NCBI GenBank assembly: GCA_016699265.1
Contig: CP064967.1
Coordinates: 90,001 to 122,000 of the forward strand
Reading direction: 5' to 3'
Origin: Candidatus Saccharimonadota bacterium
GTDB taxonomy: Bacteria; Patescibacteriota; Microgenomatia; UBA1406; GWC2-37-13
Length of the DNA stretch: 32,000 nucleotides
Below, in pieces: positions 1-24,321 of the stretch (its first letter is position 1; every line of letters begins with the position of its first letter). A model generated the notes under the pieces. That model searched no databases and was not told where the DNA came from. It saw only the letters and a program-made list of their open reading frames with translations. A program made the translations under genes and the position numbers.

Positions 1-111
1 ATGTAGGTATTGGAACAACAGCACCTGGGGCCAAGCTTGATGTTGTTGGTTCAGGTCTATTCTCCCAGAACCTTACAGTCACTGGATCAGTCTCTGCTGG
101 ATCACTAACTG

Positions 112-1077
112 TTGGAGGACACCATCACAGACTTTACAGGTACAGGACTTAGTGCAGCTGGTAACACACTTGTCACCACCCTTGGTACCTCAATCTCAAA
201 CGGGGAGCTTGATAACTCTACAATCACCTTTGCTGGTGACTTAGGCTCCTCAACAACAGCATTAGGTGCTACAAGAACAATCTCAGGTGGTACAAACGGT
301 ATTGACACCTCAGACAACAATGCCGGTACCTTAACCATTAACTTTGACTCTACAGAGGTTGGAACCACCACCTTTGGTTCAGGGTCTGCTTTTGCCTGGA
401 CCTTTGACTCAACTGCTGGAACCGATACCTCAATTGCCTTTGGATCTAACTCTCAGATCTTTACCTCAGGGACCGCCTCATTCTCAGGAAGACTTGGTAT
501 TGGTACAACCGCTCCTACCGTTTCACTTGATGTTGTTGGTTCAGGTCTATTCTCCCAGAACCTTACAGTCACTGGTTCAGTCTCTGCTGGATCACTAACT
601 GTTGGAGGAGACACCATCACAGACTTTACAGGTACAGGACTTAGTGCAGCTGGTAACACACTTGTCACCACCCTTGGTACCTCAATCTCAAACGGGGAGC
701 TTGATAACTCTACAATCACCTTTGCTGGTGACTTAGGCTCCTCAACAACAGCATTAGGCGCTACAAGAACAATCTCAGGTGGTACAAACGACAACAATGC
801 CGGTACCTTAACCATTAACTTTGACTCTACAGAGGTTGGAACCACCACCTTGGTTCAGGATCTGCTTTTGCCTGGACCTTTGACTCAACTGCTGGAACCG
901 ATACCTCAATTGCCTTTGGATCTAACTCTCAGATCTTTACCTCAGGTACTGCTTCATTCTCAGGAAGACTTGGTATTGGTACAACCGCTCCTACCGTTTC
1001 ACCTGGAGCTGGAGTCTTCTCAACTAACTCTTACCGTTAACGGGAACACAACCCTTGGAGATAACACACAGGTTTAA
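112..1077 (+). pseudogene. Fibre-gene fragment (authentic frame about 112-846, then off-frame)
   Basis: The ORF translation matches module A twice. It switches to the +1-frame peptide LVQDLLLPGPLTQLLEP after losing one t in the ttt at about 846. Confidence 0.6.
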
Positions 1078-3529
1078 TCAGGTGTATCAGGTGCAGGTGT
1101 TTCATTTGCCTCCTCAACATTTGGAACATGTACCGCCCTTGAGACAGTCGGTGGAGTCTTGACCTGCGGATCTGATGCTGGTGGATCAGACTCAGGTTGG
1201 ATTGATGGTGGATCAAACGTCTATCTTATTACCTCCTCTGACAATGTGGTATTGGAACAACAGCACCTGGGGCCAAGCTTGATGTTGTTGGTTCAGGTCT
1301 ATTCTCCCAGAACCTTACAGTCACTGGATCAGTCTCTGCTGGATCACTAACTGTTGGAGGGGACACCATCACAGACTTTACAGGTACAGGACTTAGTGCA
1401 GCTGGTAACACACTTGTCACCACCCTTGGTACCTCAATCTCAAACGGGGAGCTTGATAACTCTACAATCACCTTTGCTGGTGACTTAGGCTCCTCAACAA
1501 CAGCATTAGGTGCTACAAGAACAATCTCAGGTGGTACAAACGGTATTGACACCTCAGACAACAATGCCGGTACCTTAACCATTAACTTTGACTCTACAGA
1601 GGTTGGAACCACCACCTTTGGTTCAGGGTCTGCTTTTGCCTGGACCTTTGACTCAACTGCTGGAACCGATACCTCAATTGCCTTTGGATCTAACTCTCAG
1701 ATCTTTACCTCAGGTACTGCTTCATTCTCAGGAAGACTTGGTATTGGTACAACTCCCTACCGTTTCACTTGATGTTGTTGGAGCTGGTCTCTTCTCCCAG
1801 AACCTCTCAACTAACAGTCTCTTGGAGATAACTGTTGGAGGACACCAACCAGACTTTAAGGCAGGACTTAGTGCAGCTGGAACATTTGGCCTCCTCAACA
1901 TTGGATAACATAATCACCTTTGACAGTCGGTGACTTGACATCTGATGAACAATTGGACAAAATGCAGGTGTATAACCAACTTCAAGTTCAGACAATGCTG
2001 AAATTCAACCAACTCTCAATTTTTGCTCAAACCTCAAATCTTTTGACTCTCAGACTAACAATTTCCGTTTGGAACAGGGGGAACACAATCACCAGTGCAC
2101 CATTGCCTTTAATGCAGGTGTCAGACATTTGTCCTCAACATTTGGAACATGTACCGCCCTTGAGACTCGGTGGAGTCTTGACCTGCGGATCTGATGCTGG
2201 TGGATCAGACTCAGGTTGGATTGATGGTGGATCAAACGTCTATCTTATTACCTCCTCTGACAATGTAGGTATTGGAACAACAGCACCTGGGGAAGCTTGA
2301 TGTTGTTGGTTCAGGTCTATTCTCCCAGAACCTTACAGTCACTGGATCAGTCTCTGCTGGATCACTAACTGTTGGAGGGACACCATCAACCAGGACTTAG
2401 TGCAGCTGGTAACACAACCCTTGGTACCTCAATCTCAAACGGGAGCTTGATAACTCTACAATCACCTTTGCTGGTGACTTAGGCTCCTCAACAACAGCAT
2501 TAGGTGCTACAAGAACAATCTCAGGTGGTACAAACGGTATTGACACCTCAGACAACAATGCCGGTACCTTAACCATTAACTTTGACTCTACAGAGGTTGG
2601 AACCACCACCTTTGGTTCAGGGTCTGCTTTTGCCTGGACCTTTGACTCAACTGCTGGAACCGATACCTCAATTGCCTTTGGATCTAACTCTCAGATCTTT
2701 ACCTCAGGGACCGCCTCCTTCTCAGGAAGACTTGGTATTGGTACAACTGCTCCAACCGTTTCACTTGATGTTGTTGGTTCAGGTCTATTCTCCCAGAACC
2801 TTACAGTCACTGGATCAGTCTCTGCTGGATCACTAACTGTTGGAGGAGACACCATCACAGACTTTACAGGTACAGGACTTAGTGCAGCTGGTAACACACT
2901 TGTAACCACCCTTGGTACCTCAATCTCAAACGGGGAGCTTGATAACTCTACAATCACCTTTGCTGGTGACTTAGGCTCCTCAACAACAGCATTAGGCGCT
3001 ACAAGAACAATCTCAGGTGGTACAAACGGTATTGACACCTCAGACAACAAATGCCGGTACCTTAACCATTAACTTTGACTCTACAGAGGTTGGAACCACC
3101 ACCTTTGGTTCAGGGATCTGCTTTTGCCTGGACCTTTGACTCAACTGCTGGAACCGATACCTCAATTGCCTTTGGATCTAACTCTCAGATCTTTACCTCA
3201 GGTACTGCTTCATTCTCAGGAAGACTTGGTATTGGTACAACCGCTCCTACCGTTTCACTTGATGTTGTTGGAGCTGGTCTCTTCTCAACTAACCTTACCG
3301 TTAACGGGAACACAACCCTTGGAGATAACACCAGTGACACCATAACCTTTAATGCAGGTGTATCAGGTGCAGGTATATCATTTGCCTCCTCAACATTTGG
3401 AACAGCCCTTGAGAGAGTCTTGACCTGCGGATCTGATGCTGGTGGATCAGAAGGTTGGATTGATGGTGGATCAAACGTCTATCTTATTACCTCCTCTGAC
3501 AATGTAGGTTCATTGGAACAACAGCACTC

Positions 3530-4309
3530 TTGCTTGGTAAGCTTGATGTTGTTGGTTCAGGTCTATTCTCCCAGAACTCTCCCACAGTCACTGGATCAGT
3601 CTCTGCTGGATCACTAACTGTTGGAGGAGACACCATCACAGACTTTACAGGTACAGGACTTAGTGCAGCTGGTAACACACTTGTCACCACCCTTGGTACC
3701 TCAATCTCAAACGGGGAGCTTGATAACTCTACAATCACCTTTGCTGGTGACTTAGGCTCCTCAACAACAGCATTAGGCGCTACAAGAACAATCTCAGGTG
3801 GTACAAACGGTATTGACACCTCAGACAACAATGCCGGTACCTTAACCATTAACTTTGACTCTACAGAGGTTGGAACCACCACCTTTGGTTCAGGATCTGC
3901 TTTTGCCTGGACCTTTGACTCAACTGCTGGAACCGATACCTCAATTGCCTTTGGATCTAACTCTCAGATCTTTACCTCAGGTACTGCTTCATTCTCAGGA
4001 AGACTTGGTATTGGTACAACTCTCCCAGAACCTTACAGTCACTGGATCAGTCTCTGCTGGATCACTAACTTCACACCATCACAGACTTTACAGGACTTAG
4101 TGCAGCTGGAGTCACTTGTCACCACCCTTGGTACCTCAATCTCAAACAGGGAGCTTGATAACTTTACAATCACCTTTGCTTACTTGGGCTCCTCAACAAC
4201 AACATTAGGCGCTACAAGAACAATCTCAGGAAAAACAGATACCTCCATTAACTTTGACTCTACAGAGGTTGGAACCACCACCTTTGGTTCAGGATCTGCT
4301 TTTGCCTGA
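3530..4309 (+). pseudogene. Fibre-gene fragment (module A plus a truncated A)
   Basis: The ORF carries LDVVGSGLFSQN...GRLGIGTT, then a junction at 4020/4021 where about 80 bp of the module boundary are missing. Confidence 0.6.
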
Positions 4310-4337
4310 CCTTTGACTCAACTTAACCGATACCTCA

Positions 4338-5021
4338 ATGCCTTTGGATCTAACTCTCAGATCTTGGACCTCAGGTACTGCTTCATTCTCAGGAAGACTT
4401 GGTATTGGTACAACCGCTCCAACCGTTTCACTTGATGTTGTTGGTTCAGGTCTATTCTCCCAGAACCTTGACACTGGTTCAGTCTCTGCTGGATCACTAA
4501 CTGTTGGAGGAGACACCATCACAGACTTTACAGGTACAGGACTTAGTGCAGCTGGTAACACACTTGTCACCACCCTTGGTACCTCAATCTCAAACGGGGA
4601 GCTTGATAACTCTACAATCACCTTTGCTGGTGACTTAGGCTCCTCAACAACAGCATTAGGTGCTACAAGAACAATCTCAGGTGGTACAAACGGTATTGAC
4701 ACCTCACCGGTACCTCTAACCATTAACTTTGACTCTACAGAGGTTGGAACCACCACCTTGGTTCAGGATCTGCTTTTGCCTGGACTTGGCTTTGACTCAA
4801 CTGCTGGAACCGATACCTCAATTGCCTTTGGATCTAACTCTCAGATCTTTACCTCAGGGACCGCCTCCTTCTCAGGAAGACTTGGTATTGGAACAACTCC
4901 CCCTACCACATTGTTGGTTCAGGTCTATTCTCCCAGAACCTTACAGTCACTGGGTTCAGTCTGCTGGATCACTAACTGTTGGAGGAGACACCATCACAGA
5001 CTTTACAGGTACAGGACTTAG
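4338..5021 (+). pseudogene. Fibre-gene fragment
   Basis: Authentic module A frame about 4365-4750 and 4795-4905, off-frame elsewhere. Confidence 0.55.
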
Positions 5022-5421
5022 TGCAGCTGGTAACACACTTGTCACCACCCTTGGTACCTCAATCTCAAACAGGGAGCTTGATAACTCTACAATCACCTTT
5101 GCTGGTGACTTAGGCTCCTCAACAACAGCATTAGGCGCTACAAGAACAATCTCAGGTGGTACAAACGGTATTGACACCTCAGACAACAATGCCGGTACCT
5201 TAACCATTAACTTTGACTCTACAGAGGTTGGAACCACCACCTTTGGTTCAGGATCTGCTTTTGCCTGGACCTTTGACTCAACTGCTGGAACGGATACCTC
5301 AATTGCCTTTGGATCTAACTCTCAGATCTTCACCTCAGGGACCGCTTCCTTCTCAGGAAGACTTGGTATTGGTAATGCTCCAACCGTTTCACATGTTGTT
5401 GAGCTGAGTCTTCTCAACTAA
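4729..5421 (+). pseudogene. Fibre-gene fragment
   Basis: Off-frame at the start (MTLQRLEPPP is the +1 frame of module A). Authentic module A frame from about 4960 to 5400. Confidence 0.55.
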
Positions 5422-6837
5422 CCTTACCGTTAACGGGAACACAACCCTGGAGATAACACCAGTGACACCATAACCTTTAATGCAGGTGTATCAGGTGCAG
5501 GTATATCATTTGCCTCCTCAACATTTGGAACATGTACCGCCCTTGAGACAGTCGGTGGAGTCTTGACCTGCGGATCTGATGCTGGTGGATCAGACTCAGG
5601 TTGGATTGATGGTGGATCAAACGTCTATCTTATTACCTCCTCTGACAATGTAGGTATTGGAACAACAGCACCTGGGGCCAAGCTTGATGTTGTTGGTTCA
5701 GGTCTATTCTCCCAGAACCTTACAGTCACTGGATCAGTCTCTGCTGGATCACTAACTGTTGGAGGGGACACATCACAGACTTTACAGGTACAGGACTTAG
5801 TGCAGCTGGTAACACACTTGTCACCACCCTTGGTACCTCAATCTCAAACGGGAGCTTGATAACTCTACAATCACCTTTGCTGGTGACTTAGGCTCCTCAA
5901 CAACAGCATTAGGCGCTACAAGAACAATCTCAGGTGGTACAAACGGTATTGACACCTCAGACAACAATGCCGGTACCTTAACCATTAACTTTGACTCTAC
6001 AGAGGTTGGAACCACCACCTTTGGTTCAGGGTCTGCTTTTGCCTGGACCTTTGACTCAACTGCTGGAACCGATACCTCAATTGCCTTTGGATCTAACTCT
6101 CAGATCTTTACCTCAGGGACTGCCTCTTCTCAGGAAGACTTGGTATTGGTACAACCGCTCCTACCGTTTCACTTGATGTTGTTGGTTCAGGTCTATTCTC
6201 CCAGAACCTTACAGTCACTGGTTCAGTCTCTGCTGGATCACTAAACTGTTGGAGGAGACACCATCACAGACTTTACAGGTACAGGACTTAGTGCAGCTGG
6301 TAACACACTTGTCACCACCCTTGGTACCTCAATCTCAAACGGGGAGCTTGATAACTCTACAATCACCTTTGCTGGTGACTTAGGCTCCTCAACAACAGCA
6401 TTAGGCGCTACAAGAACAATCTCAGGTGGTACAAACGGTATTGACACTCAGACAACAATGCCGGTACCTTAACCATTAACTTTGACTCTACAGAGGTTGG
6501 AACCACCACCTTTGGTTCAGGATCTGCTTTTGCCTCTGGACCTTTGACTCAACTGCTGGAACCGATACCTCAATTGCCTTTGGATCTAACAGATCTTTAC
6601 CTCAGGTACTGCTTCATTCTCAGGAAGACTTGGTATTGGTACAACCGCTCCTACCGTTTCACTTGATGTTGTTGGAGCTGGAGTCTTCTCAACTAACCTT
6701 ACCGTTAACGGAACACAACCCTTGGAGATAACACCAGTGACACCATAACCTTTAATGCAGGTGTATCAGGTGCAGGTATATCATTTGCCTCCTCAACATT
6801 TGGAACATGTACCGCCCTTGAGACAGTCGGTGGAGTC

Positions 6838-7797
6838 TTGACCTGCGGATCTGATGCTGGTGGATCAGACTCAGGTTGGATTGATGGTGGATCAAACGTC
6901 TATCTTATTACCTCCTCTGACAATGTAGGTATTGGAACAACAGCACCTGGGGCCAAGCTTGATGTTGTTGGTTCAGGTCTATTCTCCCAGAACCTTACAG
7001 TCACTGGATCAGTCTCTGCTGGATCACTAACTGTTGGAGGGGACACCATCACAGACTTTACAGGTACAGGACTTAGTGCAGCTGGTAACACACTTGTCAC
7101 CACCCTTGGTACCTCAATCTCAAACGGGGAGCTTGATAACTCTACAATCACCTTTGCTGGTGACTTAGGCTCCTCAACAACAGCATTAGGCGCTACAAGA
7201 ACAATCTCAGGTGGTACAAACGGTATTGACACCTCAGACAACAATGCCGGTACCTTAACCATTAACTTTGACTCTACAGAGGTTGGAACCACCACCTTTG
7301 GTTCAGGGTCTGCTTTTGCCTGGACCTTTGACTCAACTGCTGGAACCGATACCTCAATTGCCTTTGGATCTAACTCTCAGATCTTTACCTCAGGGACTGC
7401 TTCATTCTCAGGAAGACTTGGTATTGGTACAACCGCTCCAACCGTTTCACTTGATGTTGTTGGTTCAGGTCTATTCTCCCAGAACCTTACAGTCACTGGA
7501 TCAGTCTCTGCTGGATCACTAACTGTTGGAGGAGACACCATCACAGACTTTACAGGTACAGGACTTAGTGCAGCTGGTAACACACTTGTCACCACCCTTG
7601 GTACCTCAATCTCAAACGGGGAGCTTGATAACTCTACAATCACCTTTGCTGGTGACTTAGGCTCCTCAACAACAGCATTAGGCATTAGGCAAGAACTACA
7701 AGGTACAAAACGGTCACCTCAGACAACAACAACGGTACCTGGACTCCAGAGGTTGGAACCACCACCTTTGGTTCAGGATCTGCTTTTCCCACCTTGA
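6838..7797 (+). pseudogene. Longest intact stretch of the array (end of B, a full A, and half of the next A)
   Basis: LTCGSDAGGSDSGWIDGG...VGIGTTAPGAKLDVVGSG... is in frame to about 7680, after which the sequence degenerates. Confidence 0.65.
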
Positions 7798-9028
7798 CTC
7801 AACTGCTGGAACCGATACCAATGCCTTTGGATCTAACTTCAGATCTTTACCTCAGGTACTACTCAGGAAGACTTGGAATTGGTACAACTGCTCCTACCGT
7901 TCACTTGATGTTGTTTTGGTTCAGGGATCTGGAGATAACTTTTTGCCTGCTGGTGACTTTGACTCAACTTTGGAACTGCACAATGGGATCTAACTCTCGG
8001 ATCAACAATGCTCTCAGTCAAACAACAAGGACTTGGTATTGGTCACCGGTTCAGGTCTAACTTCAGAACTTCTGAACCACCTTGGACTCTTTGCCTGGAC
8101 CTTTGACTCAACTAACCGATACCTCAATTGCCTTCTCAGATCTTACCTCAGGTACAGATCCCTTGGAGATGGAATATGAACATAACCTTAATATCTTGTT
8201 GGAGCCTCAGAACTGGATGGAAAGGTATTCTCAGACAACAATGCCGGTACCTACAACTTTGATGGTAAATGTTAACCTTTTGACAAATTTGCTGGAGACC
8301 TCAGGGTCTGCGGATCTGAGCTGGTTCAGACTCCAGTTGACCTCAACGGCTCACAACAGAAACATGGAATGGTGGATGGACTCAGGTGGATCCTCGATAC
8401 TCTTGGATTCTATCTTAAGAACTCATCAGTCTCTGCTGGATCACTAACTCAAACATGACAATCAGGAATGAAGAACAATCTCAGGTGGTACAAACTTATT
8501 GACATTCGACTCTGCAGAGGTTCCAAACACTTTGTTCAGGGTCTGCTAGTTCTCAACTCTGGAACCGATACTGGTAAACTAAATTTGCCTCAGGGACTAA
8601 CTAACAGGGGAAATGCCAACTTTACTTTACAGGTTCAGGACTTAGTGGAGCTGATCTGATACCTGCTGACTCGTTCAATCAATGCCGGTACCTGTTTAAA
8701 TGGAACCGACACTCGGATTGGATGGCCCTTCTAAATCAACCGGAAATTTCCGGGAACAAACCCGTTAATTATCTTCTCTGTCATCCTGGAAACAACCTCC
8801 CTCCATTAGGTTTACAAACGGTTCAACAACAAACATTTGGAGTGAACAATCTCTATTTAGCCAAACGGTACCTGACACTTAGCACTGGTACTAACCATTA
8901 ACTCTTGACATCTACAGAGGCAAAACCACCACCTTTGATTCGGTTCAGGATCTGACTTTGTTGGACCTTTGACTCAATGCAAGAACAATCTCAGGACAAA
9001 ACGATTTCTAGTCAACAGGCAACCTGCA
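7681..9028 (+). other. Scrambled, non-coding-looking zone built from short fragments of fibre modules
   Basis: Recognisable words (ggaagacttggaattggtacaactgctcctacc, gacctttgactcaact, atctcaggtggtacaaac) are separated by deletions and substitutions. The authentic frame changes every few tens of bp. Confidence 0.7.
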
Positions 9029-9450
9029 GACACCAATGCAACTCAATATCAATCTTCCTCATCAAACAAATGCAGATACTCTGCTTGGAAGACTTAACAT
9101 TGCCAATATTACTGGAGGCTCAGCGGTTGAGAGAGGTATTCAAATCAGATCAGGTTGGGACTCAAACCACTGTACTTTAACGACTCAACCAATCGCAAAC
9201 TCTGGCACCTTTTTACTCTCAACGATGGAACAAACACCTTGTTCTCAATCGTTGATGCAGGAACAACTGGTAACGTAACTACAACCGGCACATTCAACGT
9301 TAACTAACAACACAACCCTTGGAGATGCAACAACAGATACGGTTACACTAACTGCAAAGATTGCTGGGGCCTCAGGATCTGCTCTTGGCTTCTCAGACGG
9401 TTCTTTCACCACCTGTACCGCACTTGAGACTGTAGCTGGAATGCTTACCT

Positions 9451-10062
9451 GTGGAACTGACGATGTTGGAGGTGGAGCAGGGTATGGACAGATGGTACTG
9501 CCACAGCATATCTTGCAGTCTCCTCAGACTGGGTGGTATTGGAACCTCCACTCCAACAGACAAAGTCAATATCCTAGCCTCAACATCAGGATCAGCATCA
9601 TTTGATGGACTACAGATCGACTTCACCCAGTCAGATGACACCGATTCCACAGATGCCAATGCAGGACTAAATATCAACATCACATCGTCTTCCTCAGATC
9701 CAGATACCTTGTACGGAATCAATATCGCAGCAATTACTGGAGGTAGTGCAAGAGAGACAGAACTAAATGTGGGATCAGGTTGGGATTACTCCGCCTTATT
9801 TGCAGGTAAAGTAGGAATTGGGACGACCGCACCATCGAACGTTCTATCCGTCTACACAACTACAGCCAATGATGGCATCTATCTTGATGGTACAGATCGA
9901 CCAACTATACAGATCGCATCAAGCGGTGTAACGCGAGCTCGATTCGGTGTTTCTACCGGAGCAGGCCAATCATCTGACTCAGTCGCAAATGATGTAGTCA
10001 TTAGAACGGAAGGCACAAATCTACTATTTAATACAAACGGAGGATCATCAATGCTGCATTAG
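9451..10062 (+). pseudogene. Fragment of the degraded 2592-bp unit
   Basis: From about 9535 the translation matches residues GIGTSTPTDKVNILASTSGSASFDGLQIDF...NTNGGSS of the 11507-16309 ORF. Confidence 0.6.
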
Positions 10063-10156
10063 CGCTAAGCAGCACAGGTACAGCATTATTCAAAACACAA
10101 CCAACTCTACAACTGCTTTCGTAGTTCAGAACTCTGGAGGTACGAGCCTACTAAAT

Positions 10157-10609
10157 GTGGATACTTCAAACAACCGTATAACTTTGAAGGCAGATATTGA
10201 GACGTCCAATAATATCAGCAGTCCTTATGGCGGAACAGGTGTAATAGGAAACAGACTCGGTTTGTCAGAAGAGCTCGAAAATACTTTTCTATGGACGGCA
10301 AATAATCTAACAGTAACAGCCAACAACAGCTCAGCTCCAGACGCGACCCTGACAGCAGACACACTAAGTGGTTCGGCTGCAAATAGTACATTAACCTATA
10401 CTAACAGCGACATTGATGGTGCAGGCACTTACACATTTAGCATATGGCTTAAATCAAACGCCGGTAATATACCATCAACAATTCGTCTAGACTCTACGGC
10501 GGGTAGTCCTACTACCGGTACCGCAGTCAACATAACTGCTACTACCGAATGGAAGCGTTTCAGTGTGACCCAAACCTTCACTGGTAGCCCAACAGCCATT
10601 AGTCGGTAA
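10157..10609 (+). pseudogene. Fragment of the degraded 2592-bp unit (CBM-like part)
   Basis: VDTSNNRITLKADIE...TEWKRFSVTQTFTGSPTAIS is nearly identical to the clean copy at about 12749-13195. Confidence 0.6.
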
Positions 10610-11506
10610 TAACCATTACGAACAGTGGAGAAACCATTGTTGCGTGGGGAGCTCAGGTCAATCAGGCACCAGTATGGGAGTGTATACGCCAGGTGGAACG
10701 CATTCAAATCAGGAAGCTGGCGTCGTAGTCAACGGTTTACTACGACTATTTAGTAACGAGGATAGCGGAGGATATGCAGCAATTATATTTGGTTCCGGAG
10801 ACAGCAATTACAGTACTGCTCTAAGCAAAAGTGGTTTTGCAAGTACCAGGCAATACAGGTGATTTTGCATTTAACATAGATACGACGGATGGATTATTCA
10901 AATTTCAGTCAGGTTATGGGACGGCCCTTACTATAAAACCATCTGCTTATAATACCGGGACAGGTATCTTAATTTCTGGTTCGGCGCCAAGTTCCGTAAC
11001 CCAAACCAGCTGCGGTCACGGGCCTCAGCCTAAATCAGTCCACTAACTTTACTGTTCCAAACAGTTCTGCCGGAAATCAAACAGGCATTAACCTAACCAT
11101 AAAAGACGGTGGAGCCTCCGCAACCTCGAAAGGTATCTCTATTCAGGGTACTGCTGACACAGGTATAAGCTTTGGCGGAACTATAACCAATCTTATAGAT
11201 GCGACGAACTTCAAGGTTTCGAGCCTTGGAGTAGCTACTCTTGGCTCTGCGAACCAAGCTGGTTCGCTCGTCATCAATGACGGAACTAGTAGTACTGTTA
11301 CTATTAAATCCGGAACTCAGGTAGCTGCTACTAACTATGACATTACTATTCCCGCCATTACGGGCAGCGACATAATCTGCTTACAATCGTTCGCTAACTG
11401 TGGTGGAGCAAGCGTATGGATAGACGGAACCGCTAATGCATATCTTTCGGTCTCCTCAGACTGGGTAGGTATTGGGACCTCAACTCCAACTGATAAGCTA
11501 AACGTA

Positions 11507-14500
11507 TTGGCCTCAACTTCTGGGTCAACCTCATTTGACGGACTACAGATTGACTTTACTCAAGACGATGATGCGGACTCAGCAGACACCAATGCAGGAC
11601 TTAACATTAACATCACTTCATCTTCCTCAGACCAAGACACAGTACTTGGTATTAACATTGCAAATATTACCGGAGGCTCAGCGTTTGAGAGAGGATTGCA
11701 GATTGGATCAGGATGGGATAGCAATCTGTACTTTAATGACACGACAACCAATATTGGCATTGCAAACTCTCAGATCTTCACCTCAGGGACCGCCTCCTTC
11801 TCAGGAAGACTTGGTATTGGTACAACCGCTCCAACCGTTTCACTTGATGTTGTTGGAGCTGGAGTCTTCTCAACTAACCTTACCGTTAACGGGAACACAA
11901 CCCTTGGAGATGCTACAACAGATACGGTTACACTAACTGCAAAGATTGCTGGGGCCTCAGGATCTGCTCTTGGCTTCTCAGACGGTTCTTTCACCACCTG
12001 TACCGCACTTGAGACTGTAGCTGGAATGCTTACCTGTGGAACTGACGATGTTGGAGGTGGAGCAGGAGTATGGACAGATGGTACTGCCACAGCATATCTT
12101 GCAGTCTCCTCAGACTGGGTAGGTATTGGAACCTCCACTCCAACAGACAAAGTCAATATCCTAGCCTCAACATCAGGATCAGCATCATTTGATGGACTAC
12201 AGATCGACTTCACCCAGTCAGATGACACCGATTCCACAGATGCCAATGCAGGACTAAATATCAACATCACATCGTCTTCCTCAGATCCAGATACCTTGTA
12301 CGGAATCAATATCGCAGCAATTACTGGAGGTAGTGCAAGAGAGACAGGGCTAAATGTGGGATCAGGTTGGGATTACTCCGCCTTATTTGCAGGTAAAGTA
12401 GGAATTGGGACGACCGCACCATCGAACGTTCTATCCGTCTACACAACTACAGCCAATGATGGCATCTATCTTGATGGTACAGATCGACCAACTATACAGA
12501 TCGCATCAAGCGGTGTAACGCGAGCTCGATTCGGTGTTTCTACCGGAGCGGGCCAGTTATCATCTGACTCAGTCGCAAATGATGTAGTCATTAGAACGGA
12601 AGGCACAAATCTACTATTTAATACAAACGGAGGATCATCCAATGCTGCATTAGCGCTAAGCAGCACAGGTACAGCATTATTCAAAAACACAACCAACTCT
12701 ACAACTGCTTTCGTAGTTCAGAACTCTGGAGGTACGAGCCTACTAAATGTGGATACTTCAAACAACCGTATAACTTTGAAGGCAGATATTGAGACGTCCA
12801 ATAATATCAGCAGTCCTTATGGCGGAACAGGTGTAATAGGAAACAGACTCGGTTTGTCAGAAGAGCTCGAAAATACTTTTCTATGGACGGCAAATAATCT
12901 AACAGTAACAGCCAACAACAGCTCAGCTCCAGACGCGACCCTGACAGCAGACACACTAAGTGGTTCGGCTGCAAATAGTACATTAACCTATACTAACAGC
13001 GACATTGATGGTGCAGGCACTTACACATTTAGCATATGGCTTAAATCAAACGCCGGTAATATACCATCAACAATTCGTCTAGACTCTACGGCGGGTAGTC
13101 CTACTACCGGTACCGCAGTCAGCATAACTGCTACTACCGAATGGAAGCGTTTCAGTGTGACCCAAACCTTCACTGGTAGCCCTACCGCTATCAGTCCGGT
13201 AATAACCATTACGAACAGTGGAGAAACCATTGTTGCGTGGGGAGCTCAGGTCCAATCAGGCACCAGTATGGGAGTGTATACGCCAGGTGGAACGCATTCA
13301 AATCAGGAAGCTGGCGTCGTAGTCAACGGTTTACTACGACTATTTAGTAACGAGGATAGCGGAGGATATGCCGCAATTATATTTGGTTCCGGAGACAGCA
13401 ATTACAGTACTGCTCTAAGCAAAAGTGGTTTGCAAGTACCAGGCAATACGGGTGATTTTGCATTTAACATAGATACGACGGATGGATTATTCAAATTTCA
13501 GTCAGGTTATGGGACGGCCCTTACTATAAAACCATCTGCTTATAATACCGGGACAGGTATCTTGATTTCTGGTTCTGCGCCAAGTTCCGTAACTCAAACC
13601 GGGGCAGTCACCGGCCTCAGCCTAGATCAATCCACCAACTTCACTGTTCCAAACAGTTCTGCCGGTAATCAAACGGGCATCAACCTAACCATAAAAGACG
13701 GTGGAGCCTCCGCAACCTCGAAAGGTATCTCTATTCAGGGTACTGCTGACACAGGTATAAGCTTTGGCGGAACTATAACCAATCTTATAGATGCGACGAA
13801 CTTCAAGGTTTCGAGCCTTGGAGTAGCTACTCTTGGCTCTGCGAACCAAGCTGGTTCGCTCGTCATCAATGACGGAACTAGTAGTACTGTTACTATTAAA
13901 TCCGGAACTCAGGTAGCTGCTACTAACTATGACATTACTATTCCCGCCATTACGGGCAGCGACATAATCTGCTTACAATCGTTCGCTAACTGTGGTGGAG
14001 CAAGCGTATGGATAGACGGAACCGCTAATGCATATCTTTCGGTCTCCTCAGACTGGGTAGGTATTGGGACCTCAACTCCAACTGATAAGCTAAACGTATT
14101 GGCCTCAACTTCTGGGTCAACCTCATTTGACGGACTACAGATTGACTTTACTCAAGACGATGATGCGGACTCAGCAGACACCAATGCAGGACTTAACATT
14201 AACATCACTTCATCTTCCTCAGACCAAGACACAGTACTTGGTATTAACATTGCAAATATTACCGGAGGCTCAGCGTTTGAGAGAGGATTGCAGATTGGAT
14301 CAGGATGGGATAGCAATCTGTACTTTAATGACACGACAACCAATATTAGCATTGCAAACTCTGGTACCTTCACCTTCAATGACGGAACAAACACCTTGTT
14401 CTCAATCGTTGATACGGGAACAAATGCAGATCTTATTATTACCGGAGGCGTAACATTTGCAGCCTTTACGAATGGAGGCTTGGGCTGCTCAGCATTAGAA

Positions 14501-16309
14501 ACTACCGCTACAGGAGCGCTAAACTGCGGAACGGACGATACTACAGGTGGATCAGCTCCAGGTTGGACCGATGGTGGATTTAACGTCTACTTATCAACGC
14601 TCAATGACCTAGTGGGTATCGGAACAACTACTCCAACAGATAAGTTAAACATCCTAGCTTCTACCTCAGGTTCGGCAGCATTTGATGGACTACAGATTGA
14701 CTTTACTTTGTCATCGGATGGAGACAGTGCGGATAACAACGCCGGCCTAAACATTAATCTCACACAATCAAGTAGTGATGCTGATGTTCTCAATGGAATA
14801 AGCATCTCAATCGCCGGAGCGAGTACGAGCGCGAGAGAGCGAGGAATCTCAATAGGTACCGGTTTTGATGATGACATCTACTTCGCCTCTGCGTCAGCGA
14901 CTCTTAGAATTCAGAGTGGAGGACAGATTGCAATTACCGACAACTTTATCGGTGGAGGCGCAAGTAGCGATCTCCCACTTGCTCGACTAAAGGAGTACTT
15001 CTCCGATGCGAACTTTGGCGTTTGGGAGGCCGGTGGCTTCATAAATCTTGATGGATCGTATAGAATGGATAACTTTATTAATCCGGGATCTGCCTCAGCG
15101 GATATTTCCGGCGCATCGAAACTCGGAGACAATCGGGACTGGGTCGTCGATGAGGCTGCAACCGGCGCAGGAGGCACTGCTACTCAGCAGGTAGGATGTC
15201 AGGTAGGCGTAGGTGGCGGTAACACTAACCTTACATACGGTACCAGTAATCAACTAAATGGCGTTATGTATATGAAGCTTGACTCAAACTCAGTGACAAA
15301 CACACCGAATACGTGGTGCGCGATGTATCATGCTGACACCGCCGGCTCAAATGCCACACGCATGGCTCAGCTAAATGCAGCCAACAAGTTCATTATGTAC
15401 TATAAAGTCCGACCGGACTCAAACTACACCGCAACAAATACCCCAAGCAACAACAACCTCTTTTTCTGGCTAGGGGCAAATCAGCATACTCAAGGCTACT
15501 TTGGTAAGTCAACCCTTACTTCAAATAATAATCTCATTGCGTTCACCAATCTCAATGGTACCCAGACGCAGACCGGTACGAACGCTACGGCCGGTACGGT
15601 GTGGAATGGATGGGTGCAAAATGGAACTGCAGCTACCAATATATCTACGGTATCGTGTTCGAATGCCAACATCAGTACTGCTACCAATGCATGGGCATTG
15701 ATGCGTATCGAGGCTCGTGCCACTAATGATGTTCATTTCTTCATTGACGGGGATGTTTCTAACGGTGTTAGTCTGAGTGAGTGTGGAGGCGGCATTACCT
15801 CAAACATCCCAACCGGAATGTTAAGGCCACAAATTATGGCTGCCCAAAACGGCGGAACCGTCACCGTCACAAGAGGTCTATTTGTCGATCTTTTTGCCTT
15901 CGTTCAGGATGATGTGCGTGATGGTACGACTCCACAGCAGGCGTTATCAACCGACGCAGAGTTAGCCAACACAACGCAAGAAATCCCCGACATTATGGGT
16001 GGCGCAGACCTTGCCGAGCACTATTATGTTCCTGAAGGACAGGAGATTCACCCTGGAGAGATCGTTTCGCTCGGAAACTATGCAGGTCAGGTAAATAAAT
16101 CAACAAGACCATACGATCGCAAACTCTTAGGTGTAGTGTCTGAGTCTCCGGGTCTTGAGATTGGGCAGGCTGCGGCTAACTCTGTACCGGTCGCGCTTAC
16201 CGGACGCGTGTCAGTGAAGGTTAATGGTAGTGGTGGAGCAATAAAGATAGGCGATCCAATCACTCCATCTCTAATTTCAGGAGGGTATGAAGGCAACCGA
16301 GGCCGGTAA
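11507..16309 (+). CDS. Giant surface fibre/adhesin, intact 3' portion (1600 codons). It contains Cys-loop plus VGIGT(S/T)TPTDK modules, a CBM-like jelly-roll, a LamG/ConA-like region and the start of a conserved C-terminal domain. The 5' boundary is not a real start.
   Basis: This is the longest ORF in the window. It begins at a TTG inside the LASTSGS repeat. The same frame stays open and homologous back to about 11045 with no ATG/GTG/TTG. Motifs: WGAQVQSGTSMGVYTP (12893-13290 region) and WALMRIEARATNDVHFFIDGD (about 15690-15750). Confidence 0.85.
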   Translation: MASTSGSTSFDGLQIDFTQDDDADSADTNAGLNINITSSSSDQDTVLGINIANITGGSAFERGLQIGSGWDSNLYFNDTTTNIGIANSQIFTSGTASFSGRLGIGTTAPTVSLDVVGAGVFSTNLTVNGNTTLGDATTDTVTLTAKIAGASGSALGFSDGSFTTCTALETVAGMLTCGTDDVGGGAGVWTDGTATAYLAVSSDWVGIGTSTPTDKVNILASTSGSASFDGLQIDFTQSDDTDSTDANAGLNINITSSSSDPDTLYGINIAAITGGSARETGLNVGSGWDYSALFAGKVGIGTTAPSNVLSVYTTTANDGIYLDGTDRPTIQIASSGVTRARFGVSTGAGQLSSDSVANDVVIRTEGTNLLFNTNGGSSNAALALSSTGTALFKNTTNSTTAFVVQNSGGTSLLNVDTSNNRITLKADIETSNNISSPYGGTGVIGNRLGLSEELENTFLWTANNLTVTANNSSAPDATLTADTLSGSAANSTLTYTNSDIDGAGTYTFSIWLKSNAGNIPSTIRLDSTAGSPTTGTAVSITATTEWKRFSVTQTFTGSPTAISPVITITNSGETIVAWGAQVQSGTSMGVYTPGGTHSNQEAGVVVNGLLRLFSNEDSGGYAAIIFGSGDSNYSTALSKSGLQVPGNTGDFAFNIDTTDGLFKFQSGYGTALTIKPSAYNTGTGILISGSAPSSVTQTGAVTGLSLDQSTNFTVPNSSAGNQTGINLTIKDGGASATSKGISIQGTADTGISFGGTITNLIDATNFKVSSLGVATLGSANQAGSLVINDGTSSTVTIKSGTQVAATNYDITIPAITGSDIICLQSFANCGGASVWIDGTANAYLSVSSDWVGIGTSTPTDKLNVLASTSGSTSFDGLQIDFTQDDDADSADTNAGLNINITSSSSDQDTVLGINIANITGGSAFERGLQIGSGWDSNLYFNDTTTNISIANSGTFTFNDGTNTLFSIVDTGTNADLIITGGVTFAAFTNGGLGCSALETTATGALNCGTDDTTGGSAPGWTDGGFNVYLSTLNDLVGIGTTTPTDKLNILASTSGSAAFDGLQIDFTLSSDGDSADNNAGLNINLTQSSSDADVLNGISISIAGASTSARERGISIGTGFDDDIYFASASATLRIQSGGQIAITDNFIGGGASSDLPLARLKEYFSDANFGVWEAGGFINLDGSYRMDNFINPGSASADISGASKLGDNRDWVVDEAATGAGGTATQQVGCQVGVGGGNTNLTYGTSNQLNGVMYMKLDSNSVTNTPNTWCAMYHADTAGSNATRMAQLNAANKFIMYYKVRPDSNYTATNTPSNNNLFFWLGANQHTQGYFGKSTLTSNNNLIAFTNLNGTQTQTGTNATAGTVWNGWVQNGTAATNISTVSCSNANISTATNAWALMRIEARATNDVHFFIDGDVSNGVSLSECGGGITSNIPTGMLRPQIMAAQNGGTVTVTRGLFVDLFAFVQDDVRDGTTPQQALSTDAELANTTQEIPDIMGGADLAEHYYVPEGQEIHPGEIVSLGNYAGQVNKSTRPYDRKLLGVVSESPGLEIGQAAANSVPVALTGRVSVKVNGSGGAIKIGDPITPSLISGGYEGNRGR

Positions 16310-17135
16310 GATTCTTGGAACCGCGATGGAGGCATACACCGCAGAAGGGTCAGGAACCATTATGGTAAACGTCAATGTAGGTTATTATCTAGGGGATGAG
16401 CTTGGGTTAGAGCAGAACGACGAGATAGGCTTCGGTCAGAGCGAGCTCGCCTCGGGCTCCGCAACGCTTGCAAACAGCCCTGTCATCGCCATCCGAAGCT
16501 ATGTTTATAAAGGCCTTACAGAATTCTGGAATAAGGTTACGTTCAAAGAAACTGCTGAGTTCTGGGCTGAGGTGGTCTTCAAGAGCACTGTTCGTTTCGA
16601 AGGACAGGTTGAGTTCAATAAAGATACTGCGGGTTATGCAACAATCAGAAAGGGTGAAAGATTTGTAGATGTGGCCTTTGACAATTCGTATCAAACAGAG
16701 CCAATCGTCAACCTTAGCATTAACGTACCACAGGTCACCGATGAGCTATACCAAGAGTTAATAGCGTCTGGTGAGTGTGATGCCACTGAAGGAAAGGATG
16801 CATGTCAAGACAAAGTTGCAAACCTCGTACTAGGTGAAGATATTAAGGAAGGAGTTACTGGAAAGAGCTCGCAGGGCTTTATGATAATTCTGAACAAGCC
16901 AGCTCCGATCGACATCACCTACTCGTGGCAGGCGATCGCCGTAAAGAATGCAAAAACATCGGTCACAAAGACCACTCAGGAACTCCTAAATGAAGCGAGT
17001 GGCTCTGCGCAACTGGATCAAGGAGATGTGGCGGGTGAGGCAACTCCGAGCGCTATCATAACACCAATTGTTCCAATAACGCCTACTCCTTTTAGCGTTG
17101 AAGAGCTCACGCCAACTCCTTCAGTCGGACCGTAA
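16287..17135 (+). CDS. C-terminal continuation of the fibre protein in another frame (frameshift at about 16283-16290)
   Basis: The domain motif GDPITPSLISGGY | KATEAGKILGTAMEAY...GTIMVNVNVGYY runs straight across the ORF boundary. The 23-bp overlap with the upstream ORF fits a 1-nt insertion or a 2-nt deletion. Confidence 0.75.
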   Translation: MKATEAGKILGTAMEAYTAEGSGTIMVNVNVGYYLGDELGLEQNDEIGFGQSELASGSATLANSPVIAIRSYVYKGLTEFWNKVTFKETAEFWAEVVFKSTVRFEGQVEFNKDTAGYATIRKGERFVDVAFDNSYQTEPIVNLSINVPQVTDELYQELIASGECDATEGKDACQDKVANLVLGEDIKEGVTGKSSQGFMIILNKPAPIDITYSWQAIAVKNAKTSVTKTTQELLNEASGSAQLDQGDVAGEATPSAIITPIVPITPTPFSVEELTPTPSVGP

Positions 17136-17146
17136 AGGCTAAGGTC

Positions 17147-18781
17147 TTATTTAAGAAAGACTTCGTAGATCTGGAAGATATTACTTGTCTCGGCCTTGTT
17201 TAAATCGCTATGTTTGGCTGCGAATAGTTTTTCTATTTTTCTACATTTATGAGGGATGGCCTTACATTCGAAAGCATTCATGGTGAAAACTCTTCTACCA
17301 GATTTCAGTTGGTTTTTCACGAACTCGATGGTGGTATCATCCTCAAGGAAATACTGGTAGTAGACGGTAGGATGCCCATGAAGTAGCGGGATAGCTGTTA
17401 TAGGATGTATAACAACCGCATCTTTAGGTATCGCTGGAAGAAATATCTGTTCCAGATACGCATGAACATAAACTGGTCCCTGATCAACCGCGTTAAACAT
17501 TGTGGGCGCATATATGACCAGATCTTTATAATGCCAAAAATTAGAGCCGAGTTGAACCGTGGTCAGCGCAACCAGAAGAATAAATCCAGCCACGTACCTT
17601 TTTGCCTTATGAATGTTTGGTACGATATAAGATGCAATACAATCGGAGTACAGCAATATCAGTGGCGGAATTAGAATTAGGAAATACCGGCCGTACGAAC
17701 CTGAGAACTCAGCGGTTACAAACAGCCCCGCATAATAAAATGAATAAAGTAGAAAAAATGAAACGATCCAGAAGAGCTGTAAGCGATGTGAAATACTTTT
17801 GGAGGTAAGCCCAAGCCATAGTGCAGGAAGCGACAATACATACGGAAACTCAAAACCAGTGACAAGATACATAAGATTGGGTAGTGTATTTCGCGTAATA
17901 TACTTAGCGCTGAATGACTCAAGTGGAAGAGAGTCTGCACAGCACCATTTTTCTCCGAGAACCGAAAGAGAAGCGATCCCTCGCGCCAAGATTAGTGGAA
18001 TCATCATTATGAGAAGTTGTTTGTCATGCGACTGGAAAAGTATTTCTCCTCGACTTTTTCTATATCCCATTGCGAAGTACAGAAAAAGCGGTAGTAAAAT
18101 AAAGGCCTCAATGCGCACGCAGAGCAGGAGAAAAACACTCGTGGTAACAAATAGCGCATAGGTGAACGAAGGACCTTTAAGATAGAGTGCGAGAGATACG
18201 AATGAGGTTACGGTAAAAAATACAAAATAGGGGTCAAGTGCCATCGAAGCAGACCAGTAAACCAGTATCGGTAAGTAAAGCATGCCAACCAGAGTGAGTA
18301 GTGATCCAAGATATGATCGGAACAGCATGTAGCTTAGTACAGAAAGATAGATAGCGAGTAGCACGGACACGACGCGAGAGGCGTTGAAGAGGTTCGACTC
18401 CTGGTAACCAAATAGCTTGAGTATCCATCCATGCAATACGGGGACTGTGACTCGTACCGCTTGATCCGGTTTTCCGATCACTGATTTTTCAGGAGTAGCT
18501 GCCTCAACGCTTACTGCTTGATTTAGTCGCGCGAAGCTTACAGAATACCCAAGATACCGATCCTCATCGTAAAAAATGCGATGTTGATTGGGCACAAAGG
18601 CAAAGCGAAGATATACTCCTCCAGCTATGGCTGCAATCGCGATCAAGAGAATGATCTTCGGTGTTTTAAGTAAATGTTTAACGAATCTTGGAAGAAATAG
18701 AAGATTGAGCACGACAAACAGAAATAGAATGCCAGTTGTAGTCCAAGGAAAAATAATACCGAGGAGCGTTTCAGCGAGCAT
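17147..18781 (-). CDS. GT-C fold membrane glycosyltransferase (ArnT/PMT-like, GT39/83-type)
   Basis: 544 aa with many TM helices. An acidic motif, HRIFYDEDRY, sits in the first outer loop after TM1-2, as in ArnT/PMT enzymes. There is a C-terminal soluble domain. Confidence 0.65.
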   Translation of the reverse strand: MLAETLLGIIFPWTTTGILFLFVVLNLLFLPRFVKHLLKTPKIILLIAIAAIAGGVYLRFAFVPNQHRIFYDEDRYLGYSVSFARLNQAVSVEAATPEKSVIGKPDQAVRVTVPVLHGWILKLFGYQESNLFNASRVVSVLLAIYLSVLSYMLFRSYLGSLLTLVGMLYLPILVYWSASMALDPYFVFFTVTSFVSLALYLKGPSFTYALFVTTSVFLLLCVRIEAFILLPLFLYFAMGYRKSRGEILFQSHDKQLLIMMIPLILARGIASLSVLGEKWCCADSLPLESFSAKYITRNTLPNLMYLVTGFEFPYVLSLPALWLGLTSKSISHRLQLFWIVSFFLLYSFYYAGLFVTAEFSGSYGRYFLILIPPLILLYSDCIASYIVPNIHKAKRYVAGFILLVALTTVQLGSNFWHYKDLVIYAPTMFNAVDQGPVYVHAYLEQIFLPAIPKDAVVIHPITAIPLLHGHPTVYYQYFLEDDTTIEFVKNQLKSGRRVFTMNAFECKAIPHKCRKIEKLFAAKHSDLNKAETSNIFQIYEVFLK

Positions 18782-18784
18782 ACT

Positions 18785-20755: not shown

Positions 20756-20765
20756 GATAAGGTGA

Positions 20766-23319: not shown

Positions 23320-23369
23320 GCCCAGACTATAGCAGAGAGAGTTTGCGCGTACAACAAGAAAACCGTTGA

Positions 23370-24311: not shown

Positions 24312-24321
24312 AAACGTCTTT

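What the first reader, a model, noticed from the sequence alone, without database searches (positions are those of the whole stretch)
11765..11911. Gene-conversion-like patch: an A-to-B junction segment from the upstream array is pasted into the open 3' copy
Three versions of the same position can be compared. The degraded copy (about 9200-9330) reads IANSGTF..NDGTNTLFSIVDAGTTGNVTTTGTFNVN.NTTLGDATTDTVTLTAK. The third copy (14350-14460) reads IANSGTFTFNDGTNTLFSIVDTGTNADLIITGG. The open copy reads IANS | QIFTSGTASFSGRLGIGTTAPTVSLDVVGAGVFSTNLTVNG | NTTLGDATTDTVTLTAK. The inserted 11771-11893 matches the array's A-to-B junction, and it shares the rarer cagatcttcacc variant seen at about 5323. Both borders fall in short shared identity: aactct at 11765-11770 and aacacaacccttggagat at 11894-11911. 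This is what a homology-bounded conversion tract from array to downstream unit looks like. It shows that sequence has moved between the two repeat families.
Basis: seen in the sequence. Interest (0 to 1): 0.6.

Follow-up and report, generated by a model that had tools for sequence, protein, structure and literature searches.

The report
Recombinant joint in giant repeat gene
A 123-base piece of the upstream repeat array really does sit between two copies of a 2.5-kb block inside one giant, repetitive surface-fibre gene of a tiny wastewater bacterium (Candidatus Roizmanbacteria). It marks the joint of a strain-specific duplication, which is an ordinary kind of repeat shuffling, and the sequence comes from a partly unpolished assembly.

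Summary
Window 11771-11893, with shared borders AACTCT (11765-11770) and AACACAACCCTTGGAGAT (11894-11911), is array-type sequence. Of 67 informative sites inside 11765-11911, 65 follow the array; outside, 5 of 142 do (Fisher p=2e-45). The closest array copy is 5317-5454: 136 matches, 2 substitutions, 9 gap positions.

The "gene conversion into the open copy" reading is only partly supported.
- The patch is the joint of an in-frame 2,592-nt tandem duplication (9309-11783 vs 11894-14375, 98.3% identical). Six other samples of the same species have one block, no patch and an intact ORF.
- The left border has only 6 nt of identity.
- The right border (array tail followed by NTTLGD...) is a native adjacency, seen in the array, in a seventh sample and in related species.
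- "Degraded" versus "open" copies is very probably an assembly effect. The window comes from CP064967, a Unicycler assembly run with --no_pilon and --mode bold, and positions 1 to about 11010 carry singleton indels over an open consensus frame.

My best reading is short-homology template switching or illegitimate recombination among paralogous modules of one giant gene. It is not a silent-cassette system. No independent contig confirms the X|patch joint, so read-level confirmation is still needed. Interest is low to moderate.

The parts
1..7915 (+). Upstream array: 13 A units of about 490 nt, five of them followed by a B unit of about 290 nt. It is part of the same giant gene, whose 5' end lies outside the window.
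   Evidence: Repeat families and spacings 492/752/781/994. The consensus A unit is an open 170-aa frame, yet the individual copies carry 64 singleton indel events.
5317..5454 (+). Array A-to-B junction closest to the patch, and the candidate donor.
   Evidence: 136 matches, 2 substitutions and 9 gap positions against 11765-11911. It is the only other site with CAGATCTTCACC.
7916..9024 (+). Heavily frame-broken stretch of diverged A-like sequence between the array and X1.
   Evidence: The three-frame translation switches frame every few tens of bases. There is no match to the allele-I sequence upstream of X1.
9025..9308 (+). X1-Y1: the end of an M/X module followed by a Y module (GTF..NDGTNTLFSIVDAGTTGNVTTTGTFNVN), noisy in the window.
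   Evidence: 89-97% identical to intact X1-Y1 in L002, L005-L007, L010 and L017, with 8 indels against L006.
9309..11783 (+). Block copy 1 (Z start, body with a GTA-spike-fibre-like domain, M/X module). Noisy up to about 11010.
   Evidence: 98.3% identical to 11894-14375, with 30-31 substitutions and 9 indels.
11765..11770 (+). Left border: AACTCT (Asn-Ser codons), shared by the X modules and the A units.
11771..11893 (+). The patch: an array-type A-unit tail encoding QIFTSGTASFSGRLGIGTTAPTVSLDVVGAGVFSTNLTVNG, in frame.
   Evidence: 65 of 67 informative sites in 11765-11911 are array-like; identities to array copies.
11894..11911 (+). Right border: AACACAACCCTTGGAGAT (NTTLGD), shared by array B units, Z modules and other modules. 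The shared stretch extends to GTTAACGG.AACACAACCCTTGGAGATGC (11885-11913) against Y-type tails.
11894..14375 (+). Block copy 2, clean and in frame.
   Evidence: No indels and 23 substitutions against L006.
13564..13681 (+). Cluster of 15 mostly synonymous substitutions found only in copy 2: a second mosaic tract with no donor identified.
14363..14470 (+). Y3 module after X3 (GTFTFNDGTNTLFSIVDTGTNADLIITGG), the unpatched paralogous state.
   Evidence: 99-100% identical in the nine other contigs that span it.
10997..17135 (+). The open 3' part of the giant gene. The ORF is split at 16279 by a 2-nt G-run contraction into 11507-16309 and 16287-17135.
   Evidence: In the other contigs this is one ORF running to the stop that corresponds to 17135.

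Best explanation
Everything from window position 1 to 17135 is one giant, modular, repeat-rich gene. It encodes more than 5,700 codons of fibre-like protein with GIGTTAP-type modules and a GTA-head-spike-fibre-like domain. The organism is a Candidatus Roizmanbacteria bacterium (Patescibacteria, the CPR group) from activated sludge.

In this genome a 2,592-nt in-frame segment has been added relative to the common allele X1-Y1-[Z-body-X]-Y3. The added segment is the 123-nt A-unit tail plus a second copy of the Z-body-X block. The patch is the joint of that tandem duplication.

I think it arose by short-homology template switching or illegitimate recombination between paralogous modules. Synthesis or strand exchange left the end of X at the 6-nt AACTCT. 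It copied an A-unit tail from the array; the best match is the A-to-B junction at 5317-5454. It then re-entered the start of Z at the 18-29-nt AACGG.AACACAACCCTTGGAGAT identity. That gives a templated insertion at a duplication joint.

Shown: the mosaic, its borders, its array affinity, the duplication, and the single-block alleles in other samples. Inferred: that one event made both features, and the direction from array to joint. The protein consequence is an extra 864 residues of fibre, in frame.
For: - Mosaic with one switch at each border, and 95-99% identity to array A-to-B junctions.
- Tandem blocks 9309-11783 and 11894-14375 are 98.3% identical, and the patch lies exactly between them.
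- From 11771 to 14362 is 2,592 nt, which is 864 codons, and AACTCT lies immediately before it (11765-11770) and forms its last six bases (14357-14362).
- Five gap-free contigs from other samples at 97-99.5% identity (L005, L006, L007, L010, L017), plus scaffold L002 with a 2,469-N gap, run X1-Y1-block-Y3 with one block and no patch.
- Copies 1 and 2 share four substitutions seen in no other contig (13412, 13586, 13618, 13660). This points to a lineage-specific duplication.
- Left-border identity is only 6 nt.
- The same NTTLGD 18-mer follows several different upstream modules in the window and in other alleles. L008 shows a second, independent array-to-Z joint. These module borders are therefore recurrent switch points.
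Against: - No independent contig or read confirms the X|patch joint. Two JGI scans and one viral-contig scan gave no hit, and the protein search found no product containing the junction.
- Copy 1 is a noisy Nanopore consensus, so the sites it shares with copy 2 could reflect pooled reads.
- A two-step history (Y3 x Y1 unequal crossover, then replacement of the hybrid Y) predicts the same final sequence.
- The adjacency of array tail and Z is conserved in related species. The patch-to-Z side could therefore be old rather than newly copied from the array.
Confidence: 0.5

Rival explanations
1. Two-step history. First, a tandem duplication formed by unequal crossover between the homologous Y3 and Y1 modules. 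Then a non-reciprocal gene conversion from an array A-to-B junction replaced the hybrid Y module at the joint.
For: - Y1 and Y3 are about 80-85% identical and share a roughly 30-nt identical run, enough for a RecA-type crossover.
- A Y module must lie between the blocks after such a duplication, so the position of the patch is expected.
- The tract is donor-like and bounded on both sides.
- The TTCACCT string shared by the patch and Y3 could be retained recipient sequence.
Against: - The left flank offers 6 nt of identity and about 55% similarity beyond it. That is poor substrate for homologous conversion.
- No duplicated allele with a Y-type joint was seen in any sample, although short-read assemblies could hide one.
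Confidence: 0.2
2. Assembly artefact. The X2|patch joint, or the whole second block, is a mis-bridge or strain chimera produced by Unicycler in bold mode. The region is a strain-mixed repeat at about 12-15x coverage.
For: - The source MAG CP064967 was reassembled with Unicycler v0.4.6 using --no_pilon and --mode bold.
- Positions 1 to about 11010 are error-rich consensus.
- Copy 1 mixes L006-like and copy-2-like states site by site in 13564-13681, as a consensus of pooled reads would.
- Eleven contigs plus one gapped scaffold from other samples reach the Y|Z or X|Y3 border, and none has the joint.
Against: - The joint lies in clean sequence, is in frame, and switches inside exact shared strings.
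- Overlap or graph bridging cannot join X to an A tail across 6 nt unless reads or k-mers span it.
- No polishing step was run that could have rewritten the region.
- Copies 1 and 2 differ at many sites, so two distinct block sequences exist in the sample.
Confidence: 0.17
3. Old architecture retained. X-[A tail]-Z with two blocks is the older form in this species. The single-block alleles arose from it by recombination between the two blocks, and concerted evolution keeps the patch similar to the array.
For: - The A-tail-to-Z adjacency is conserved in L011, L013 and P0001.
- Recombination between copy 1 and copy 2 would give exactly allele I. Recombination between an array A unit and the patch would give an L008-like allele.
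Against: - Copies 1 and 2 share derived sites absent from all single-block contigs.
- No other sample shows the X|patch joint.
- Related species place Z after a GIGTTAP-type module that is not itself preceded by an X module (L011; the L013 contig starts at QIFT, so its upstream context is unknown).
Confidence: 0.1
4. Programmed antigenic-variation system. The upstream array would be a bank of silent, frame-broken cassettes that donate segments to a single expressed 3' copy, as in vlsE, pilE/pilS or msp2.
For: Superficial anatomy only: a broken upstream array, an open downstream copy and a donor-like tract.
Against: - The array consensus is one continuous open frame, and the breaks are singleton indels.
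- The region corresponding to the 'degraded copy' is intact and continuous with the 3' part in five other contigs, giving ORFs of more than 2,100 aa.
- The assembly was never short-read polished.
Confidence: 0.03

Closest known systems
Periscope proteins: bacterial surface proteins whose near-identical tandem repeats expand and contract by intragenic recombination (SasG, Rib/Alpha C, R28; review PMC9704523)
   Same: A very long gene with tandem units of high DNA identity (A units 95-100%, blocks 98.3%). Unit number differs between near-identical strains (one block versus two). The changes are in frame.
   Different: The units here are heterogeneous modules (A, B, M/X, Y, Z, body) rather than a uniform domain array. 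The event joins two different repeat families. Cell-surface location, anchoring and a monomeric rod fold are not shown. The organism is a CPR bacterium.
Templated insertions at duplication joints by serial template switching (FoSTeS/MMBIR-type events; RecA-independent microhomology duplications in bacteria). Named from my own knowledge.
   Same: A tandem duplication whose joint holds a short segment copied from a nearby paralogous site, with 6-nt and 18-nt identities at the two switch points.
   Different: The mechanism is inferred from the end product only. The same product can arise in two steps. The right switch point has enough identity for ordinary homologous exchange.
Segmental gene conversion between paralogous repeats or cassettes (Borrelia vlsE, Neisseria pilE/pilS, Anaplasma msp2). 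Named from my own knowledge.
   Same: A donor-like tract bounded by recipient sequence, with the donor family present in many upstream copies.
   Different: The donors are not silent cassettes but in-frame parts of the same ORF. Only one tract is seen. The left border lacks usable homology. There is no evidence for repeated switching.
Phage tail-fibre and GTA head-spike-fibre proteins (NCBIfam NF048003)
   Same: The block body matches the GTA_spike_fiber domain (E=1e-17). Fibre genes are classic mosaics that shuffle at module borders.
   Different: The gene is chromosomal, lying between housekeeping genes (F-type ATPase, NDK, M23 peptidase). There are no phage neighbours. Only one domain matches.

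Membership tests
Gene-conversion tract between paralogous repeats | A tract of donor-like sequence flanked on both sides by recipient-like sequence | tested here: met
   65 of 67 informative sites are array-like inside 11765-11911, against 5 of 142 outside.
Gene-conversion tract between paralogous repeats | A donor copy persists elsewhere | tested here: met
   Array A-to-B junctions near 909, 3165, 5302 and 6573; the best is 5317-5454.
Gene-conversion tract between paralogous repeats | An unconverted allele of the same site exists (same locus, with the recipient-type module) | tested here: inconclusive
   Other samples lack the whole second block, so the orthologous site is absent. Only the paralogous sites Y1 and Y3 show the Y-type state.
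Gene-conversion tract between paralogous repeats | Homology at both borders sufficient for homologous strand exchange (tens of bases) | tested here: not met
   The left border has 6 nt of exact identity and then about 55% similarity. The right border has 18 exact bases, or about 29 with one mismatch.
Silent-cassette antigenic variation (vls / pilS / msp2 type) | Donor copies are silent, truncated or frame-broken cassettes separate from the expressed gene | tested here: not met
   The array consensus is an open frame, and the breaks are singleton indels in an unpolished bridge. In other samples the downstream repeat region, including the counterpart of the 'degraded copy', is one intact ORF.
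Silent-cassette antigenic variation (vls / pilS / msp2 type) | Many different donor tracts at the expression site among clones | not testable with these tools
   This needs clonal or long-read population data. Only three structural alleles were seen at the Y|Z border.
Periscope-type variable-repeat surface protein | Tandem repeats with very high DNA identity | tested here: met
Periscope-type variable-repeat surface protein | Repeat number differs between closely related strains | tested here: met
   Two blocks in the window, against one in L005-L007, L010, L017 and L008, at 97-99.5% identity. This depends on the window's assembly being correct.
Periscope-type variable-repeat surface protein | A cell-surface-attached, single-chain, rod-like fold | tested here: inconclusive
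   The N-terminus lies outside the window. Pfam, PHROGs and PDB sequence searches gave nothing beyond GTA_spike_fiber. The AlphaFold model has pLDDT 39.7.
Template-switch (FoSTeS/MMBIR-like) duplication joint | A tandem duplication with a short templated insertion at the joint, and microhomology at each switch point | tested here: met
   The blocks, the patch and the 6-nt and 18-nt identities.
Template-switch (FoSTeS/MMBIR-like) duplication joint | Duplication and insertion arose in a single event | not testable with these tools
   This needs intermediate alleles or experimental reconstruction.

The most novel reading that the evidence does not exclude
The giant fibre gene of this CPR episymbiont could be a recombination-driven variable locus. 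In this reading, short conserved strings at module borders (AACTCT, and AACGG.AACACAACCCTTGGAGAT) act as recurrent switch points. Modules from different repeat families are re-joined in frame at these points. That would generate the structural alleles now seen within one species at more than 98.8% identity: Y1-to-Z, full A unit with a long connector to Z, and X-patch-Z with a duplicated block. Such alleles would change the length and composition of a host-attachment fibre.
Probability: 0.2. Interest if true: 0.55.

Novelty: new member of a known kind. Interest (0 to 1): 0.3.

Why it matters
If reads confirm it, this is a clean example of in-frame module shuffling and block duplication in a giant surface-fibre gene of a Patescibacteria (CPR) bacterium, with different structural alleles in different wastewater samples. 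Such genes are candidates for host attachment in these episymbionts, so structural variation there could bear on host range.

It is also a practical caution. The apparent contrast between decayed copies and one open copy is most likely produced by an unpolished long-read bridge. It should not be read as pseudogenes or silent cassettes.

Tried and rejected
Searches that found nothing useful:
- Exact-protein look-ups of the window's own ORFs (11507-16309 and 16287-17135) are not on record. The gene is split in this assembly.
- JGI metagenome scans gave 0 hits, both for the X|patch 25-mer and for the generic A-junction 23-mer. The viral-contig scan also gave 0.
- A protein search with the 161-aa X-patch-Z segment returned 4 hits, none containing the IANS|QIFT joint. 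It did identify the source MAG through IPH70_00535 and IPH70_00545.
- The genome-contig search found only relatives at 61-65% identity.
- Pfam, PHROGs and PDB sequence searches of the intact L006 product found nothing except NCBIfam GTA_spike_fiber.
- The single-sequence AlphaFold model of 11402-12400 had pLDDT 39.7, so I ran no fold search.
- I looked for a donor of the copy-2 cluster at 13564-13681 and found none.

Explanations considered and rejected:
- Silent-cassette system: the array consensus is open, and the downstream repeats are intact in other samples.
- Polishing artefact: no Pilon was run, and a 6-nt left anchor cannot recruit reads.
- A simple microhomology duplication of an A-tail-Z-body-X segment: copy 1 is preceded by X1-Y1, not by an A tail.
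- My first BLAST figure of about 85% identity between the patch and the array was misleading. It averaged the 95-99% tract with its roughly 55% flanks.
Full report
**What is in the window**

Positions 1-17135 on the + strand are one long repeat-rich coding region. Only 10997-16309 is open as assembled. It has several parts.
- An array runs from 1 to about 7915: 13 'A' units of about 490 nt, five of them followed by a 'B' unit of about 290 nt.
- A badly frame-broken stretch covers 7916-9024.
- A downstream repeat family follows. Its largest element is a 2.48-kb block present twice: 9309-11783 (copy 1) and 11894-14375 (copy 2). They are 98.3% identical, with 30-31 substitutions and 9 indels, all the indels being breaks in copy 1.
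- Each block starts with module Z (NTTLGDATTDTVTLTAK...). It contains a body that matches NCBIfam GTA_spike_fiber (E=1e-17). It ends with module X (...GSGWDSNLYFNDTTTNIGIANS).

The flanking genes from 17 to 32 kb are intact housekeeping genes: a divergent F-type ATPase, NDK, an M23 peptidase, a GT2 glycosyltransferase, an epimerase and two beta-lactamase-like proteins.

**Source of the window**

Two array ORFs are identical to GenBank proteins IPH70_00535 and IPH70_00545 of a Candidatus Roizmanbacteria MAG on a 928,688-bp contig. Supplementary Data of Singleton et al. 2021 (PMC8012365) lists one circular genome of exactly that size. It is Damh_18-Q3-R51-60_BAT3C.63_uni, accession CP064967, classified as Patescibacteria; Microgenomatia; UBA1406. 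The two values listed next to it, about 12 and 15, I read as coverage.

The 'uni' genomes were made with Unicycler v0.4.6 using --no_correct, --no_pilon and --mode bold. This matters for everything below.

After the shared AACTCT (11765-11770), copy 2 is preceded by QIFTSGTASFSGRLGIGTTAPTVSLDVVGAGVFSTNLTVNG (11771-11893). The paralogous positions in copies 1 and 3 read GTFTFNDGTNTLFSIVD....

I made a three-way alignment of the window, an unpatched X-Y-Z parent (L006) and an array A-to-B junction.
- It gives a clean 1...1 / 2...2 / 1...1 pattern.
- Inside 11765-11911, 65 of 67 informative sites follow the array. Outside, 5 of 142 do (Fisher p=2e-45).

The tract is 139/147 identical to the array copy near 3165. 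Against the copy at 5317-5454 it has 136 matches, 2 substitutions and 9 gap positions, the gaps being breaks in the noisy array copy.

CAGATCTTCACC occurs only at 5323 and 11771. The same TTCACCT string also stands at the aligned position of Y3, so that single base does not identify the donor. My first BLAST figure of about 85% averaged the tract with its poorly matching flanks.

**The patch sits at the joint of a tandem duplication**

It lies exactly between copy 1 and copy 2. From 11771 to 14362 is 2,592 nt, or 864 codons. AACTCT lies immediately before this segment (11765-11770) and forms its last six bases (14357-14362).

Exact-protein look-ups of two neighbouring genes returned 16 contigs of the same species from other metagenomes, 97-99.8% identical.
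- Five gap-free contigs (L005, L006, L007, L010, L017) run X1-Y1-[one block]-Y3 to the end of the gene, as a single intact ORF of more than 1,850 to 2,169 aa. They have no patch and no second block.
- Scaffold L002 has the same order, with a 2,469-N gap where the block should be.
- L008 has one block preceded by a complete A unit and a connector 17 aa longer (...LDVVGSGLFSQNLTVTGSVSAATLNISGNGAI-NGNTTLGD). This is an independent array-to-Z joint.
- L009, L014 and L018 end 110-130 nt inside Z, consistent with an assembly branch near that border.

None of these 16 contigs has the X|patch joint. Two JGI scans and one viral-contig scan for it found nothing.

**The two borders are not equivalent**

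The right one is a native adjacency.
- 'GIGTTAP...LDVVG...NG' followed by 'NTTLGD...' is how every A-to-B junction of the array reads.
- The specific continuation into Z (NTTLGDAT.DTVTLTAKIAGASG...) follows a GIGTTAP-type module in L008, in two related species (L011 and L013, whose neighbouring gene is 61-65% identical) and in P0001.
- The 18-mer AACACAACCCTTGGAGAT follows A tails and Y tails and precedes at least four different module types.

The left border is the unusual one. X is fused to the middle of an A unit after the shared Asn-Ser codons. It has 6 nt of exact identity and only about 55% similarity upstream.

That is too little for ordinary homologous conversion. It is what microhomology-mediated template switching or illegitimate recombination leaves behind.

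**Mechanism**

I favour a single complex event. Synthesis or exchange leaves X at AACTCT, copies an A tail from the array, and re-enters the start of Z at the 18-29-nt identity. The block is then copied a second time.

I cannot separate the two models with the data available.

Copies 1 and 2 share four substitutions absent from all other contigs. This argues that the duplication is specific to this lineage rather than ancestral. The caveat is that copy 1 is a noisy consensus.

**'Degraded' versus 'open' copies**

- The consensus of the 13 A units is an uninterrupted 170-aa frame, yet the individual copies carry 64 singleton indel events, about 1 per 110 nt.
- Over 9025-11783 the window has 17 indels relative to L006. 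Over 11884-17200 it has one.
- The same DNA in other samples is an intact ORF.
- The assembly had no short-read polishing, and bridges without a graph path are raw long-read consensus.

The frame breaks are therefore best explained as unpolished Nanopore bridge sequence ending near 11010. This removes any reading of the array as silent cassettes feeding an expression site.

**Reliability of the joint**

The joint lies in clean, in-frame sequence. An assembler cannot join X to an A tail across 6 nt without reads or k-mers that span it. The two block copies differ at many sites, so two block sequences exist in the sample.

Against that, bold-mode bridging, low coverage, strain mixture and the lack of any independent confirmation leave about a one-in-six chance of an artefact.

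**Comparison with known systems and verdict**

In behaviour this resembles repeat-number variation in Periscope-type surface proteins (PMC9704523), and the mosaicism of phage fibre genes. The joint looks like the templated insertions described for template-switch duplications.

It fails the defining feature of cassette-based antigenic variation, which is silent donors. It also fails one feature of classical gene conversion, which is usable homology at both borders.

It is a new example of a known kind of event, in an unusual organism and a very large gene. Interest is low to moderate. Confirmation from the original reads is the essential next step.

Noticed in passing
window 1-11010: High density of singleton 1-4 nt indels: 64 events across 13 A units over an open consensus frame, and 17 in 9025-11783 relative to L006. 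The next 21 kb have only two. This fits an unpolished long-read bridge from Unicycler run with --no_pilon and --mode bold.
   Followed up: yes
window 16279: A 2-nt contraction of a G run (GGGG to GG) splits the giant ORF into 11507-16309 and 16287-17135. All 16 other contigs have GGGG. It could be a real strain-specific frameshift or an error.
   Followed up: partly
window 24954: A second 2-nt homopolymer difference (T6 in the window, T8 in L001), in the intergenic space between 24913 and 24967.
   Followed up: no
window 13564-13681: Fifteen mostly synonymous substitutions unique to block copy 2. They are interleaved with three sites shared only by copies 1 and 2 (13586, 13618, 13660). This looks like an imported tract, or in copy 1 a pooled-read consensus. 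No donor was found in the window or the fetched loci.
   Followed up: partly
L008 (ENA ERZ27268713 k119_42571), reverse-complement positions 1-330: A different structural allele. A full array A unit is joined to Z through a 17-aa longer connector (TGSVSAATLNISGNGAI), with no X or Y module upstream. It shares T at window 11914 with copy 2.
   Followed up: yes
L002 (JGI 3300038404 Ga0393997_0000071), reverse-complement positions 2737-4741: Allele I upstream of the block. An A tail (GVFSTNLTVNG) runs into NTTLGDATTDVTYVTGKIGIGDSTP..., followed by three X-Y pairs. This shows that the Y module is the usual partner of X in this species. The scaffold has a 2,469-N gap where the block lies.
   Followed up: yes
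window 12004-12031: A polymorphic cluster (ETVAG versus ETVNG) among samples. Three contigs (L009, L014, L018) end at 12004-12023, probably at an assembly branch.
   Followed up: no
L011-L013 (CAYOIN010000007.1, CAYZRL010000007.1, CAZHVF010000028.1): These records carry a relative of the neighbouring 544-aa gene (61-65% identical) next to a related giant repeat gene. Their titles say 'uncultured Gammaproteobacteria bacterium', which is probably a taxonomic mislabel.
   Followed up: no
window 1-17000 versus 17000-32000: G+C is 44-49% across the giant gene and 35-43% in the flanking housekeeping genes.
   Followed up: no
window 20766-24311 (- strand): Two paralogous Beta-lactamase2-family (PF13354) genes flank a GT2 glycosyltransferase and an NAD-dependent epimerase.
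   Followed up: no
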